From a virus: a stretch of DNA of 64,000 bases. Of this stretch, positions 49,882 to 52,848 are shown piece by piece; the stretch's first letter is position 1; each line of letters opens with the position of its first letter. The position numbers and the translations under genes are program-made. The notes below the pieces were generated by a model. That model saw nothing but the letters and a program-made list of their open reading frames with translations. It was not told the DNA's origin and did not search any database. The stretch lies in the IMG/VR virus record IMGVR_UViG_3300017963_000257, positions 9,681-73,680 of that record. One strand, written 5' to 3'.

Positions 49882-50059
49882 GAGAATACATGGAAAGAAA
49901 AACTTTTTGTCCAAACGATGGATTCGGAGTTAGCGTGGATGAAGCCAGCTATTGATGACTTAGGCATTAAATGCGAATGCCCTGGTTGCCATAGGCTAAT
50001 TTCAATAACCGCATGCCCAATTTGTGGGCAAAAAATAACCCCGCGGAAAGGAGACAAGG

Positions 50060-50749
50060 ATGGTAAGTAGCATCGCAGGAGATTTTTATCGGTTGGAAAT
50101 TCGTTTTGCTGAAGACTTTTTGGGGACGGTCCCAAAGAGCAAGGAGGTCTATAAGAAATACATTGCCAGCAAGAAGCCGGACCTCACCGACGATGAGCTT
50201 GATGAAGAAGTGAACAGCGTTCAGGACACAGAAGAAAAGGGGTGGACAGGGTTTCACAAGGATGATAATGGCCTGTTTATCTTTGATTACATGCTAAAGG
50301 GATTCATTAAGGCATCCTTCGAAGTATGCCAGGAGATTGGCGCCATCGATAAGGTGAAGGCATACAGGAAATGGATCGACGAGCTGATCTTCATATGGCC
50401 GCGGAAAATCTATTGTGGGCAGTCTGATCCCGATAGCACCCTTGAGAGACCGTTGAGGGTTATGACAATGCAGGGACCTCGGGTTACGTTAAGCCGTTCA
50501 GACACGATGGCCGAGGGGACCCGACTCAGGTTTCTCGTTGAGGTGTTGGGGAAAAAGATCAAGTGGGAATCGATTGAGCAGGTGTTCGACTATGGTAGGT
50601 ATGTGGGGCTGGGACAATGGCGTGGGAGTGGTGGATTTGGTCGGTTCGAGCTTGAGGATGTAACCCCAATAAACAAAGAATTGGGCATCAAAGCCAAAGC
50701 GATGGCAAAGCAAAGCGACGAACAGTTTTGGCAGTGTTTGGAGCAGTGA
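50060..50749 (+). CDS. Solo Cas7-like RAMP protein
   Basis: beta1 LEIRFAEDFLG; LFIFDYMLKGFIK (RAMP alpha1-like); thumb-like RPLRVMTMQGPRVTLSRSD; GTRLRFLVEV; G-rich loop YVGLGQWRGSGGFGRF. Confidence 0.7.
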   Translation: MVSSIAGDFYRLEIRFAEDFLGTVPKSKEVYKKYIASKKPDLTDDELDEEVNSVQDTEEKGWTGFHKDDNGLFIFDYMLKGFIKASFEVCQEIGAIDKVKAYRKWIDELIFIWPRKIYCGQSDPDSTLERPLRVMTMQGPRVTLSRSDTMAEGTRLRFLVEVLGKKIKWESIEQVFDYGRYVGLGQWRGSGGFGRFELEDVTPINKELGIKAKAMAKQSDEQFWQCLEQ

Positions 50750-51121
50750 TGGCAGTGTTTAGCGCCGTTCTGTGGTGGTATTGTTAAGCACAGTGAAGTA
50801 GCGGCATGGTTTGGCAGGTCCCGGCATGGGCACAGTGTAGCATGGTAAGGTTTCGGCAGGGTAGAACCTCGTACCGCGTCGGCAATGTTCCGTGAGGTGG
50901 CGTGATGGTGTGGTGAAGCGCGATAGAGTAACGTGGCGGCATAGTCTCGTTAAGTGCAGTGTCGGCAAAGCAAAGCGGGGTAGCCAAGAGCAATGGTAAA
51001 GCACGCTTATCGCATGGTGAGGTATTGTATCGGCATGGCACAGCATGGTAGGGTCGGTAATGGTAGAGTAAGGCACCGTGTCGTGATGCAGCGGCGCAGC
51101 TCAGCGGAGTTGAGCGGAGGC
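50701..51121 (+). ncRNA. Periodic NNNGY/NNYGGY repeat array, candidate guide RNA(s) for the adjacent Cas7-like protein
   Basis: Hand parse gives 81 consecutive 4-6-nt units, 73 ending in GY; hexamers recur mostly every 26 nt. The RNA function is inferred. Confidence 0.65.
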
Positions 51122-52036
51122 AGCTTCCCAGGCTTTATACACCCTATCCCTGATCATCTTGGGGGTCGGGTGGAGATACCGTTCGCGGATTGTCTCCACC
51201 TTGTCCCCCAAGAGAAAGGCGATGTCCTCAATCCTCATGTTTCCAGTGTAGAACAGGTAGGTGGCCGTGTAATGGCGAAACGTATGAGGTCCTCTACCAT
51301 CCTTCCCGTTCTTCAGGCCCAGGTCTTGCAACATCCGTGTGATTTCAGATTTGATCTTGTCGACATTTGGGAAAAGACAGCTTGTTTTATTGTTAATCAC
51401 ACAATGTGTCTTTTTGTATTCCGCATTTGCCAAAAGTTCGGCCAACAAAACAGCTGTTTTCCTTGAGAAAACAACAGGCCGGGGCTCAGTCTTCCCCTGG
51501 ATGAAAACACACATTTCGTAAAGGTGAATATCTTCCATCCTGATCCCCGCTATCTCTCCAACCCTGGCGCCGGTTTCTACCAGTAGGCGCACGACCACTT
51601 GAAATTCTAGGGCGCGAGTGCTTGCAGTCAGGACATTCCCATTGTTAAACCGATATGCAAGACATTTCTCAATGTCTTCCTCTGTGAACCAGCGGTCCAG
51701 ATGCTTCCTTTTGTTTTCCTGCCGGTCTTTGTTGGGAATCCGGTAGGTGAACTCCGTTGGATACCCCGCCCACTTCAGGAAAATCTTGGTGCAGTTTAAA
51801 TACTGCTGTACGGATTTTCCAGACAGACCTTTGGATTCAAGATATGTTGCGAAGTCGCCAAGGTTGCTTGATACAACCTCAAATTTCTCATGACATATGG
51901 CGGCTGGACAGCCCAGCGCCGGAGATTCTTTCATGAAATTCTCAAGGTGTCCAAGCACATACCCATATAGTTCCCGCGTAGACTTCGCAAGGCCTTTGAC
52001 TTCAGGTGATTCAAGGTATTTCTGAATTATGTTCAT
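51101..52036 (-). CDS. Second tyrosine recombinase (XerC/D-like)
   Basis: SAM-like N-domain; TGARVGE, GK, HTFRH, LLGD (H to D), RY. Confidence 0.85.
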   Translation of the reverse strand: MNIIQKYLESPEVKGLAKSTRELYGYVLGHLENFMKESPALGCPAAICHEKFEVVSSNLGDFATYLESKGLSGKSVQQYLNCTKIFLKWAGYPTEFTYRIPNKDRQENKRKHLDRWFTEEDIEKCLAYRFNNGNVLTASTRALEFQVVVRLLVETGARVGEIAGIRMEDIHLYEMCVFIQGKTEPRPVVFSRKTAVLLAELLANAEYKKTHCVINNKTSCLFPNVDKIKSEITRMLQDLGLKNGKDGRGPHTFRHYTATYLFYTGNMRIEDIAFLLGDKVETIRERYLHPTPKMIRDRVYKAWEAASAQLR

Positions 52037-52848
52037 GGAACTCTCCTTTTCAATTCCTCGATCTGTTTCTGCTGGGCCTGTATGGCGCCGATCGCCATAG
52101 TCAATAACTCGTAGATATCCACACGCTTTCCGTCATTGGATAGCACCCACGTTGGCATATCCTCTGCGAGAAAACCCAGCCTCGTGGTACCGTCGCCACC
52201 AAATTCTTCTTTGTATTGATACAGGGAAGGAATCATCTTCATGATCATTTCCAACATGACAGGGTTGGCGGATTCATCCAGTTTCTGAATATTCTTTTTG
52301 TACTCGCTCGAAGAAGCGTTTACGAAACTGGTTGCGCCTACCTTCCCGTTGACGTGGAGCTTGTAGTCTGGAAAGCTCTCGCCTATACCGACATTGCCTT
52401 GGGTGTCAATTCTGAGGTATTCAGTCCCGGGGAGATATCCACCCATGAGGTAAGAAATTGAGAAGTCGTACAGCCCATATGGCTGACCCACAAGCCATGC
52501 CTCAGTGCCTTGTTTAATCAGAAGTCGAGCGCCGTTGATATTCGAGATATTGGTGAATGATGCCATAATGCCGTCTATGGAATCCGGCTTTTCGACCTCT
52601 AAGTTGTTAACCGGGTTTTCAATGGTGCCCATAGGCCCCTGCGGTCCTTCCGGCCCTTCCTCCCCCTGCTCACCTTGTGGCCCCTCTGGCCCTTGGGGGC
52701 CTATCAACGTAGCCGTTGTCTGTGTCGTACCATCTGGGAACTCTATCCCCTGCGGCGTGAGCTTGGTGCTGCCGGCGAAAGCGGTTCCGTGTAACAGTAC
52801 GATCCATACCACAAAAAATAATTGGAAAAGATGGTTTTTCATGGTCAA
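52033..52848 (-). CDS. Signal-peptide protein with collagen repeat, fibre repeat and S74-type chaperone
   Basis: ...LLHGTAFA; (GPQ/GPE/GEQ)n; GNVGIG; SS.EYKKNI, LGFLAEDM, AIQAQQKQIEEL. Confidence 0.75.
   Translation of the reverse strand: MTMKNHLFQLFFVVWIVLLHGTAFAGSTKLTPQGIEFPDGTTQTTATLIGPQGPEGPQGEQGEEGPEGPQGPMGTIENPVNNLEVEKPDSIDGIMASFTNISNINGARLLIKQGTEAWLVGQPYGLYDFSISYLMGGYLPGTEYLRIDTQGNVGIGESFPDYKLHVNGKVGATSFVNASSSEYKKNIQKLDESANPVMLEMIMKMIPSLYQYKEEFGGDGTTRLGFLAEDMPTWVLSNDGKRVDIYELLTMAIGAIQAQQKQIEELKRRVP

What the first reader, a model, noticed from the sequence alone, without database searches (positions are those of the whole stretch)
50701..51121. Two-level grammar of the array: 26-nt units made of one NNYGGY hexamer plus four NNNGY pentamers
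Seen (hand parse): gatggc aaagc aaagc gacga acagt | tttggc agtgt ttgga gcagt | gatggc agtgt ttagc gccgt tctgt | ggtggt attgt taagc acagt gaagt | agcggc atggt ttggc aggtc ccggc | atgggc acagt gtagc atggt aaggt | ttcggc agggt agaac ctcgt accgc | gtcggc aatgt tccgt gaggt ggcgt | and so on. Hexamers start at 50701, 50727, 50748, 50774, 50800, 50826, 50852, 50878, 50904, 50935, 50961, 50992, 51013, 51029, 51059, 51090 and 51116. Spacings are mostly 26 and otherwise differ by whole pentamers (16, 21, 31; one 30). 73 of 81 units end in GY while the leading bases are freely variable. GGCAAAGCAAAGCG recurs exactly 260 nt apart. Inference: selection keeps the phase but diversifies the content, unlike a decaying microsatellite. 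The YGGY(A) hexamers may mark processing sites or register shifts that define ~16 separate guides.
Basis: seen in the sequence. Interest (0 to 1): 0.85.

Follow-up and report, generated by a model that had tools for sequence, protein, structure and literature searches.

The report
Phage VIPR guide-RNA array, hexamer-punctuated
The five-base rhythm with a one-base slip every 26-31 bases is real and is the guide-RNA array of a phage VIPR system (a lone Cas7-like protein plus pentamer-coded guides, first described in 2026 preprints), so it is a good new example of a known kind, not a new system.

Summary
In 50685-51121 (+), G and GY recur every 5.2 nt (power 31-34; shuffle maximum about 12). One-base slips at NNYGGY hexamers fall 4-6 units apart (p about 1e-6).

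The tract directly follows a 229-aa ORF with a confident Cas7/RAMP fold. In most of the 80 related phage loci, the homologous gene sits beside a 0.2-1.6 kb tract with the same rhythm, on its own strand. No other neighbouring gene is conserved.

This matches VIPR systems (bioRxiv 10.64898/2026.04.26.720920 and .720927): a Vipr protein plus vrRNAs of pentamer repeats, including YNNNG variants and continuous "staggered" arrays.

Added here:
- The hexamer grammar holds family-wide, with junction consensus GC|AAHGGC|A.
- Related arrays differ by indels of 5, 26, 26 and about 31 nt.
- G is nearly invariant while other positions drift.
- The G-loop reads GLGQ[W/F]R where SUSP1 Vipr has GVGDWR, which fits the relaxed first G.

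Not shown: transcription, cutting at hexamers, and targets.

This scan has noted the same pattern before on other genomes. Verdict: new member of a known kind.

The parts
50060..50749 (+). vipr gene: a lone Cas7/RAMP-like protein of 229 aa. The conserved part ends near residue 200 (about 50660). The last 25-30 codons are read-through into the first array units.
   Evidence: AlphaFold2 pLDDT 88. Foldseek PDB top hits are Cas7-11, type VII Cas7, Csm3 and Cmr4, E about 1e-7. VIA-align gives Z 10.3-10.7 to Cmr4, Csm3 and type VII Cas7. 352 homologues, almost all ending at GRFE.V. 1613 clusters at 50% identity. No Pfam or PHROG family. The G-loop aligns to SUSP1 Vipr.
50685..51121 (+). Candidate vrRNA array: about 84 units of NNNGY (YNNNG-type repeats). 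It is G/T-rich and C-poor, has no tail or spacer longer than 6 nt, and carries about 17 NNYGGY hexamers.
   Evidence: Period 5.2 nt. Parses. Folds no better than shuffles as RNA: z +1.4 on the + strand and +2.3 on the - strand. No Rfam family. No period-3 signal.
50701..50799 (+). Cassettes 1-4. Hexamers start at 50701, 50727, 50748 and 50774; lengths are 26, 21, 26 and 26 nt.
   Evidence: Cassette 1 opens with GGCAAAGCAAAGCG, which is repeated in the cassette at 50961.
50800..50903 (+). Cassettes 5-8. Hexamers start at 50800, 50826, 50852 and 50878; all are 26 nt. My parse finds an irregular AGGT/CCCGGC stretch inside 50816-50825.
50904..51028 (+). Cassettes 9-13. Hexamers start at 50904, 50935, 50961, 50992 and 51013 (my parse puts the last slip at 51003); lengths are 31, 26, 31, 21 and 16 nt. 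This is the least regular part.
51029..51121 (+). Cassettes 14-16 plus the final hexamer. Hexamers start at 51029, 51059, 51090 and 51116; lengths are 30 (contains a 4-nt unit CGGT), 31 and 26 nt. The last 21 nt overlap the 3' end of the convergent integrase gene.
   Evidence: Integrase ORF 51101-52036(-).
49918..50070 (+). Small four-cysteine (zinc-ribbon-like) ORF of 50 aa, overlapping the vipr start by 11 nt. It is a possible accessory gene, but membership is doubtful.
   Evidence: Only sub-threshold Pfam hits, e.g. Prok-RING_4 at E 0.017. Similar CxxC...CxxC mini-ORFs lie upstream of vipr in only about 6 of 66 loci, so it is not a conserved partner.

Best explanation
The tract is the guide-RNA (vrRNA) array of a VIPR system carried by a 73.7-kb uncultured marine-sediment/seawater phage.

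What the published SUSP1 work shows, taken here by analogy: the neighbouring gene encodes a Vipr protein, a minimal Cas7-like RAMP. One protomer binds each 5-nt repeat of the transcript. It sequesters the conserved bases (here G-Y, against G-G-Y in SUSP1) and presents the variable bases to read a gapped DNA target in a rival mobile element, silencing it.

This locus belongs to a large clade that uses the relaxed YNNNG repeat. The clade writes its guides as one continuous array with no tails, spacers or ribozymes.

Every 4-6 units a GGY-containing hexamer adds one base. I read these hexamers as the punctuation that divides the array into about 16 short cassettes of 21-31 nt. This is the layout the VIPR paper calls a 'staggered' array.

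Shown here:
- the periodicity and its two levels;
- conservation of the protein-plus-array module, and of nothing else, across most of 80 phage loci;
- the RAMP fold and a shared G-loop motif;
- purifying selection on the phased G;
- gain and loss of cassette-sized blocks.

Inferred:
- transcription of the array;
- one protomer per unit;
- cutting or separate loading at hexamers;
- DNA targeting.
For: Protein
- Cas7/RAMP fold at high confidence.
- The G-loop ...G-L-G-Q-W-R-(4-5 aa)-G-R-F aligns to G-V-G-D-W-R-..-G-R-F of SUSP1 Vipr. This appears both against PDB 36pp and against the phiSUSP1 gene ALH47069 (hhalign E 4e-4).
- W and R are the residues that the cryo-EM paper reports stacking on G2 and holding Y3. 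The residue that reads G1 (D177) is Q in all 66 relatives, and G at the G1-equivalent position is only 8-45% in their arrays.
- Four copies are predicted to associate head to tail: ipSAE 0.70 against a best control of 0.00. The mark was reached by 20 of 30 solved homo-pairs and 1 of 23 single chains. Runs agree in at least 75% of contacts and partner pLDDT is at least 77. The pass may reflect remembered Cas7 filaments.

Module
- About 70 of 80 IMG/VR loci with a homologue have a 5.1-5.3-nt G-periodic tract of 0.2-1.6 kb beside the gene.
- All 56 arrays parsed are G-rich on the gene's strand, whether upstream or downstream.
- No other gene is conserved.

RNA-like behaviour
- The strand asymmetry above.
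- The tract is selected to be unstructured.

Grammar, family-wide
- 4576 pentamers: N-N-N-G(92%)-Y(85%).
- 1135 hexamers: N-A-N-G(75%)-G(92%)-Y.
- Hexamer gaps of 5 and 6 units occur 284 and 249 times, against 87 and 70 expected.
- Junction consensus GC|AAHGGC|A.
- Exact repeats within an array mostly start 10-11 nt before the GG and end 2-3 nt after it.

Evolution
- L004/L005: G 2% substituted against 11-29% elsewhere, with indels of 5 and 26 nt.
- L073/L078: indels of 26 and about 31 nt, the first starting right after a hexamer.

Literature
- VIPR comprises Vipr plus GGY/NN vrRNAs.
- Alternative repeats NNNGG, YNNNG and NNNNG are described, as are staggered arrays.
- The systems are mostly viral (10.64898/2026.04.26.720920).
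- The filament has one protomer per repeat (10.64898/2026.04.26.720927).
Against: - Sequence similarity to the only experimentally studied Vipr is confined to about 42 G-loop columns (hhalign probability 34%; hmmsearch E 0.5). Homology rests mainly on fold plus locus design.
- The published loci usually carry a vap accessory gene. None is conserved here.
- Studied vrRNAs have 9-16 strict 5-nt repeats and a structured 3' tail; phiSUSP1 shows period 5.0. Cassettes of 4-6 units would specify only 8-12 (NN) or 12-18 (NNN) bases.
- The preprint says the staggered arrays were not among the architectures confirmed by small-RNA sequencing. Its legend speaks of a 1-nt overlap, whereas I see a 1-nt insertion. 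I could not see the figure.
- No RNA data exist and no convincing target was found.
Confidence: 0.8

Rival explanations
1. It is still a VIPR array, but the hexamers are not guide boundaries. They are once-per-turn register corrections or nucleation marks on long, continuous Vipr filaments, so guides span several hexamers.
For: - Hexamer spacing peaks at 5 and 6 units. These are the numbers of protomers per helical turn reported for the target-bound (5) and free (6) SUSP1 filament.
- No tails or other terminators exist between cassettes.
- Cassettes of 4-6 units look too short beside the 9-16 repeats of studied vrRNAs.
- Full GGY at hexamers, against NGY elsewhere, could be a stronger binding site.
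Against: - Studied 12-repeat filaments need no extra base per turn; phiSUSP1 has period 5.00.
- Spacing is variable (16-41 nt) within one array, which a geometric requirement would not tolerate.
- The junction has its own consensus, and repeats within an array are anchored on it like a short handle.
- Related arrays differ by whole 26/31-nt blocks.
Confidence: 0.15
2. The array is not a set of guides. It is a decoy or sponge RNA that soaks up Vipr protein (its own or a rival phage's), or a scaffold for an RNA-protein filament with another role.
For: - Satellite-encoded stand-alone vrRNAs that redirect a phage's VIPR to decoy sites are published (10.64898/2026.10.15.759431, abstract).
- The variable positions are compositionally biased (A-rich) and low in information.
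Against: - The array is co-oriented with and adjacent to its own vipr gene in every parsed locus.
- Variable positions diverge quickly but not neutrally: N1 and N2 change about half as often as N3 and Y.
- N1N2 composition fits sense codon positions 1-2 best of six phase models, r 0.58. Guides copied from genes would give this; a sponge would not.
Confidence: 0.04
3. The periodicity acts at the level of double-stranded DNA: protein-binding or bending signals phased at half a helical turn (5.2 bp = 10.4/2), for example a partition, packaging or recombination site next to the integrase.
For: 5.2 bp is half the B-DNA repeat. The tract abuts the integrase gene.
Against: - There is no 10.4-bp peak.
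- The period varies from 5.1 to 5.3 between loci, following the hexamer spacing.
- Strong strand asymmetry is always tied to the vipr coding strand.
- The integrase is not a conserved neighbour.
- The slip is a specific extra G, not a spacing drift.
Confidence: 0.01

Closest known systems
VIPR systems with alternative YNNNG repeats and 'staggered' vrRNA arrays (bioRxiv 10.64898/2026.04.26.720920: Results, type-classification methods, fig. S17/S18 legends)
   Same: - Phage-borne lone RAMP protein.
- Adjacent long non-coding tract of 5-nt repeats with a conserved G/Y core and hypervariable bases.
- Continuous array in which the end of one unit is the start of the next.
- No CRISPR repeats or cas genes.
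   Different: - The legend describes neighbouring vrRNAs as overlapping by 1 nt. Here the phase moves by +1 at a GG doublet. I could not see the figure, so the equivalence is inferred.
- The preprint gives no spacing statistics, junction consensus or cassette turnover, and says this architecture was not among those confirmed by small-RNA sequencing.
- No conserved vap gene here.
Type II VIPR of Escherichia phage phiSUSP1 (KT454805; Vipr = ALH47069, PDB 36pp) and the Pseudomonas fulva prophage
   Same: - Minimal Cas7-like protein of about 195-200 aa.
- Shared G-loop G-x-G-[D/Q]-W-R...G-R-F.
- Pentamer repeats on the gene's strand in the flanking intergenic DNA.
   Different: - SUSP1 has separate vrRNAs of about 100 nt, each with 9-16 strict NNGGY repeats (period 5.00) plus a structured 3' tail, and a vap1 gene.
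- This locus has NNNGY repeats (first G relaxed, Q in place of D177), one continuous 437-nt array with hexamer slips (period 5.2), no tails and no vap1.
- Outside the G-loop the proteins are not alignable by sequence.
Class 1 CRISPR backbone filaments (Csm3/Cmr4/Cas7 on crRNA; also type IV-B Csf on non-CRISPR RNA)
   Same: Best structural matches of the protein. Expected head-to-tail filament along a single-stranded RNA with a periodic thumb insertion.
   Different: - CRISPR uses a 6-nt period with sequence-independent binding, repeat-spacer arrays, Cas6/Cas5 processing and several cas genes.
- Here the period is 5 nt with a base-specific G-Y anchor in every unit, there are no CRISPR repeats, and the protein stands alone.
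TRAP (trp RNA-binding attenuation protein) and its 11 (G/U)AG repeats (from my own knowledge)
   Same: A protein oligomer reading a short conserved motif repeated every 5-6 nt in otherwise variable, unstructured RNA.
   Different: TRAP is a closed 11-mer ring of unrelated fold that regulates one operon. It has no guide function and no arrays of 80-300 units.

Membership tests
VIPR system | Lone, minimal RAMP (Vipr) protein with an RRM core, glycine-rich loop and thumb hairpin, and no second RRM | tested here: met
   - AF2 model pLDDT 88, with a long beta-hairpin at residues 126-150 and a C-terminal G-loop.
- Foldseek and VIA-align top hits are all Cas7-type RAMPs, E 1e-7 and Z up to 10.7.
- The conserved part is about 200 aa.
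VIPR system | Sequence homology to an experimentally characterised Vipr (SUSP1, PDB 36pp) | tested here: inconclusive
   Only the G-loop segment aligns: hmmsearch E 0.53; hhalign 42 columns, E 4.4e-4, probability 34%. The key residues W178/R179 are matched, and D177 is replaced by Q.
VIPR system | Flanking non-coding tandem pentamer repeats with a conserved GGY-type core and hypervariable bases (YNNGG or NNNGG/YNNNG/NNNNG) | tested here: met
   63 pentamers NNNGY, which is YNNNG read in the shifted frame. Family-wide logo.
VIPR system | Encoded mainly by phages or proviruses | tested here: met
   The window's genome is a single 73.7-kb contig. It carries replication protein O, a RuvC-like resolvase, an integrase and tail-fibre genes. 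319 relatives lie in IMG/VR viral contigs.
VIPR system | A vipr-accessory (vap) gene beside vipr | tested here: not met
   No neighbouring ORF cluster is shared by more than 7 of 81 loci. Upstream small ORFs are heterogeneous. The paper says loci 'typically' have a vap and lists six vap genes for seven types, so this is not an absolute requirement.
VIPR system | vrRNAs are expressed and bound by Vipr, one protomer per repeat | not testable with these tools
   No RNA run holds this phage. Only self-association of the protein could be modelled (0.70 against 0.00).
VIPR system | Variable bases match rival mobile elements under the gapped (1-nt skip) rule, with no self-targets | tested here: inconclusive
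   No self-match above shuffled controls. No targets recovered.
VIPR type II (SUSP1-like) | Discrete vrRNAs of 9-16 strict GGY/NN repeats capped by a conserved structured 3' tail; vap1 | tested here: not met
   The array is continuous with no non-periodic stretch longer than 6 nt. The period is 5.2, not 5.0. The first G is not conserved. No vap1-like neighbour.
VIPR ribozyme-interspersed arrays | Hammerhead ribozymes between vrRNAs | tested here: not met
   No Rfam family reaches its gathering score anywhere in the window.
VIPR 'staggered' arrays | [quoted passage not shown] | tested here: inconclusive
   A continuous array with quantised one-base phase slips is shown. Cassette-sized indels are shown. 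The figure itself is not held, and the legend's '1 nt overlapping' wording is not obviously the same as a +1 slip.
CRISPR-Cas (class 1) | Repeat-spacer array of 25-40-nt repeats plus several cas genes (Cas5, Cas6, large subunit, adaptation) | tested here: not met
   No direct repeats of that kind: Tandem Repeats Finder finds nothing in the tract. Neighbours are ordinary phage genes.

The most novel reading that the evidence does not exclude
The GGY hexamers are a structural code, not just commas. Cassettes of 5-6 units equal exactly one turn of the Vipr filament (5 protomers per turn when target-bound, 6 when free). This clade would then work with one-turn mini-guides, or with very long filaments re-phased once per turn.

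The freed third variable base (Q in place of D177) would also be read, so that the guide spells whole codons. That would be a second, contiguous-triplet recognition rule within VIPR.
Probability: 0.12. Interest if true: 0.6.

Novelty: new member of a known kind. Interest (0 to 1): 0.33.

Why it matters
VIPR is a months-old discovery, and only the SUSP1-type design has been studied at the bench. This locus belongs to a very large, mostly environmental clade: 1613 clusters at 50% identity. The clade uses a relaxed NGY anchor and writes its guides as a continuous array punctuated by hexamers.

The quantitative grammar found here gives concrete handles for testing how such arrays are measured, processed and loaded:
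- hexamer spacing of 5-6 units;
- junction consensus GC|AAHGGC|A;
- cassette-sized indels;
- the D-to-Q change in the G-loop.

It also allows a test of whether one-turn guides of only 8-18 informative bases can silence a target. For annotation, it shows that period-5.2 G tracts beside a small unannotated ORF are a reliable marker of these systems.

Tried and rejected
Tools and data
I used the search for related loci instead.
- Expression: no RNA holder is listed for this stretch. Laying the four DNA holders gave only identical contigs, so there was no strain variation to read.
- Promoter and terminator scans around the locus were no better than shuffles.
- I could not view the preprint's figures or supplements.

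Targets
- A spaced-seed search of all 56 arrays against the 81 loci plus the phage genome gave the same number of seeds as reversed controls: 49 against 49, none extending.
- Two 10-unit NNx patterns crossing a hexamer gave 0 hits in IMG/VR.
- One contiguous 18-mer built from N1N2N3 of a 6-unit cassette gave 0 hits.
- The other (cassette at 51059) gave 3 hits. These fall in two unrelated genes: a 2183-aa fibre-like protein and a prohead protease-capsid fusion. Both read antisense in frame as IDGLSI. By my rough estimate (assumed database size), about one chance hit is expected for an 18-mer in a collection of this size, and the flanks do not match neighbouring cassettes. I make no target claim.

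Is N3 read?
- Stop triplets in N1N2N3 are only mildly depleted: 195 seen against 224 (dinucleotide model) or 248 (N3 taken from the next unit).
- Concatenated triplets do not form long ORFs.
- This is too weak to decide.

Other checks
- The three ORFs of 85-157 aa inside the tract have no Pfam family, and the tract lacks codon periodicity.
- A second periodic tract elsewhere in the genome: the next-best signal (window about 62260) lies in ordinary sequence with no GY register.
- PDB 36pp is not in the structure-search libraries, so no direct fold comparison with SUSP1 Vipr was possible.
Full report
**What is there**

The tract lies between a 229-aa ORF (50060-50749, +) and a convergent tyrosine integrase (51101-52036, -). 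On the + strand it is G/T-rich and C-poor.

A strict 5-nt Fourier test shows nothing. A fine scan gives a sharp peak at 5.2 nt: power 30.7 for G and 33.7 for GY. The shuffle maxima are 5.5-6 ± 1.4, with a largest value of about 12. The signal is confined to about 50685-51121 and is the strongest of its kind in the window.

- 72 of 80 complete units end in GY; shuffles give 12 ± 3.
- 15 of 17 hexamers fit NNYGGY.
- The spacings are as listed.
- The 14-mer GGCAAAGCAAAGCG recurs 260 nt apart.

An independent dynamic-programming parse gives 63 pentamers, 19 hexamers and 2 tetramers. Hexamer gaps are 4-6 units in 14 of 17 cases (p about 1e-6 against random placement).

The tract has no codon periodicity, unlike both flanking genes. 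It folds no better than shuffled sequence on either strand (z +1.4 and +2.3). It matches no Rfam family.

**The neighbouring gene**

The 229-aa ORF has no Pfam or PHROG family. It does have 352 close homologues and 1613 clusters at 50% identity in metagenomes. Relatives end at about residue 200, just after an invariant GLGQWRGSGGYGRF motif. The last 25-30 codons here are therefore read-through into the array.

The AlphaFold2 model (pLDDT 88) matches Cas7-type RAMPs and little else. Cas7-11, type VII Cas7, Csm3 and Cmr4 score Foldseek E about 1e-7 and VIA-align Z 10.3-10.7.

Four copies are predicted to pack head to tail through two distinct faces.
- ipSAE is 0.70 against a best control of 0.00.
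- The mark was reached by 20 of 30 solved homo-pairs and 1 of 23 single chains.
- Runs agree in at least 75% of contacts, and partner pLDDT is at least 77.
- This may simply echo solved Cas7 filaments.

**The module is conserved; nothing else is**

I fetched 80 IMG/VR loci through the protein alignment. About 70 have a 5.1-5.3-nt G-periodic tract of 0.2-1.6 kb right beside the gene. It is usually downstream, sometimes upstream or on both sides. All 56 arrays that I parsed are G-rich on the gene's coding strand.

BLAST clustering of all ORFs finds no other shared neighbour. The small ORFs just upstream are heterogeneous. Strand co-orientation plus selection against structure points to a function as a transcript.

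**Identification**

My own literature searches on Cas7-like phage proteins found nothing relevant. Earlier notes of this scan on other genomes named VIPR and gave a DOI. I then read the preprints.

10.64898/2026.04.26.720920 describes Viral Interference Programmable Repeat systems.
- A lone, minimal RAMP (Vipr), mostly in phages, is flanked by non-coding DNA that encodes vrRNAs.
- The vrRNAs are made of GGY/NN pentamers whose NN bases read double-stranded DNA with one skipped base per repeat.
- Alternative repeats (NNNGG, YNNNG, NNNNG), 'staggered arrays with overlapping vrRNAs', ribozyme-interspersed arrays and seven types are listed.

10.64898/2026.04.26.720927 shows one protomer per repeat.
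- G1 is read by H17 and D177.
- G2 is held by R138 and W178.
- Y3 sits in a pocket with R179.
- The filament has 6 protomers per turn when free and 5 when target-bound.

The unit here, NNNGY, is the YNNNG variant.

At sequence level only the G-loop aligns. The family reads GLGQ[W/F]R...GRF and SUSP1 Vipr reads GVGDWR..GRF, both against PDB 36pp and against the phiSUSP1 gene (hhalign E 4e-4, probability 34%). W and R are kept. The G1-reading Asp is Gln in all 66 relatives, and G at the G1-equivalent position is never dominant in their arrays (8-45%). That is a coherent explanation of the relaxed repeat, but it rests on two clades only.

phiSUSP1's own vrRNAs are discrete, strictly 5.0-periodic and tailed. 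This locus is therefore not type II.

**The two-level grammar**

Pooled over 56 arrays (5711 units), pentamers read N-N-N-G(92%)-Y(85%). Hexamers read N-A-N-G(75%)-G(92%)-Y, so the extra base is specifically a second G.

Gaps between hexamers peak at 5 and 6 units: 284 and 249 observed against 87 and 70 under a geometric model. Short gaps are depleted. The modal cassette is 26 nt in some loci and 31 or 36 in others. This explains why the period ranges from 5.1 to 5.3.

The junction has its own weak consensus, GC|AAHGGC|A. Part of the 100% G before the hexamer is an artefact of my parser.

Exact repeats within an array mostly start 10-11 nt before the GG and end 2-3 nt after it. In several relatives the junction thus behaves like a short conserved handle between variable bodies.

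In the two pairs of arrays that can still be aligned:
- the phased G changes at 2% of sites, against 11-12% (N1, N2), 21% (N3) and 29% (Y, mostly C/T);
- the indels are 5, 26, 26 and about 31 nt, one starting directly after a hexamer.

These facts support cassettes as units of evolution and, by inference, of function. They fit the published 'staggered' layout, although I could not see that figure, and the preprint states that this layout was not confirmed by small-RNA sequencing.

**What remains open**

No RNA data exist, so transcription and processing at hexamers are inferred.

Cassettes of 4-6 units would carry only 8-12 (NN) or 12-18 (NNN) informative bases, far fewer than studied guides. 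The coincidence of 5-6 units with one filament turn keeps alive the rival reading that hexamers are per-turn register or nucleation marks.

Target searches failed or were indistinguishable from chance. Two indirect hints suggest the variable triplets were copied from coding sequence:
- N1N2 fits sense codon positions 1-2 best of six models (r 0.58);
- stop triplets are 13-21% depleted.

Both hints are weak.

**Verdict**

This is a real and cleanly organised VIPR vrRNA array of the YNNNG, continuous (staggered-like) kind, with its Vipr gene. The system has been public since April 2026, and this scan has met the same pattern repeatedly on other DNA. It is therefore a new member of a known kind. 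The family-wide statistics, the cassette indels and the G-loop Q/D contrast are modest additions.

Noticed in passing
window 49918-50070 (+): A 50-aa four-cysteine mini-ORF overlaps the vipr start by 11 nt. Similar CxxC...CxxC ORFs precede vipr in only about 6 of 66 related loci, so it is a possible but unconserved accessory.
   Followed up: partly
window 50660-50749 (+): The vipr reading frame runs 25-30 codons past the conserved end of the family into the first array units before a stop. The protein tail (KAKAMAKQSDEQFWQCLEQ) is therefore array-encoded and probably incidental.
   Followed up: partly
window 51101-51121: The last 21 nt of the array are also the last 7 codons (antisense) of a convergent tyrosine integrase (311 aa, Phage_integrase E 3e-15). 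The integrase is not a conserved neighbour in relatives.
   Followed up: partly
L031 2069-2936 and 3557-5180; L062 1837-2244 and 3533-4460: Some relatives carry arrays on both sides of vipr. The largest is 1.6 kb with about 311 units and 62 hexamers, and 98% of its units end in GY.
   Followed up: partly
L009 and L010 (same IMG/VR contig, 58209-64790 and 85641-92222 reversed): One 150-kb viral contig holds two identical inverted copies of the vipr locus. This could be a real duplication or an assembly artefact.
   Followed up: no
L050 and L054 arrays: In these relatives the hexamer junction extends to a 12-15-nt conserved motif (for example GCAGCAAAGGCA) repeated through the array. Whole cassettes are also duplicated, which looks more like a miniature repeat-spacer design.
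   Followed up: partly
L083 3703-5742 (-): A 679-aa ORF that I read, from remembered sequence motifs only, as a prohead-protease/major-capsid fusion with a long acidic linker. It contains one of the chance-level 18-nt matches to the cassette at 51059.
   Followed up: partly
window 52033-52848 (-): A 271-aa protein with a signal-like N-terminus, collagen-type GxP repeats and a C-terminal S74 intramolecular chaperone domain (tail-fibre-like). It lies directly downstream of the integrase.
   Followed up: no
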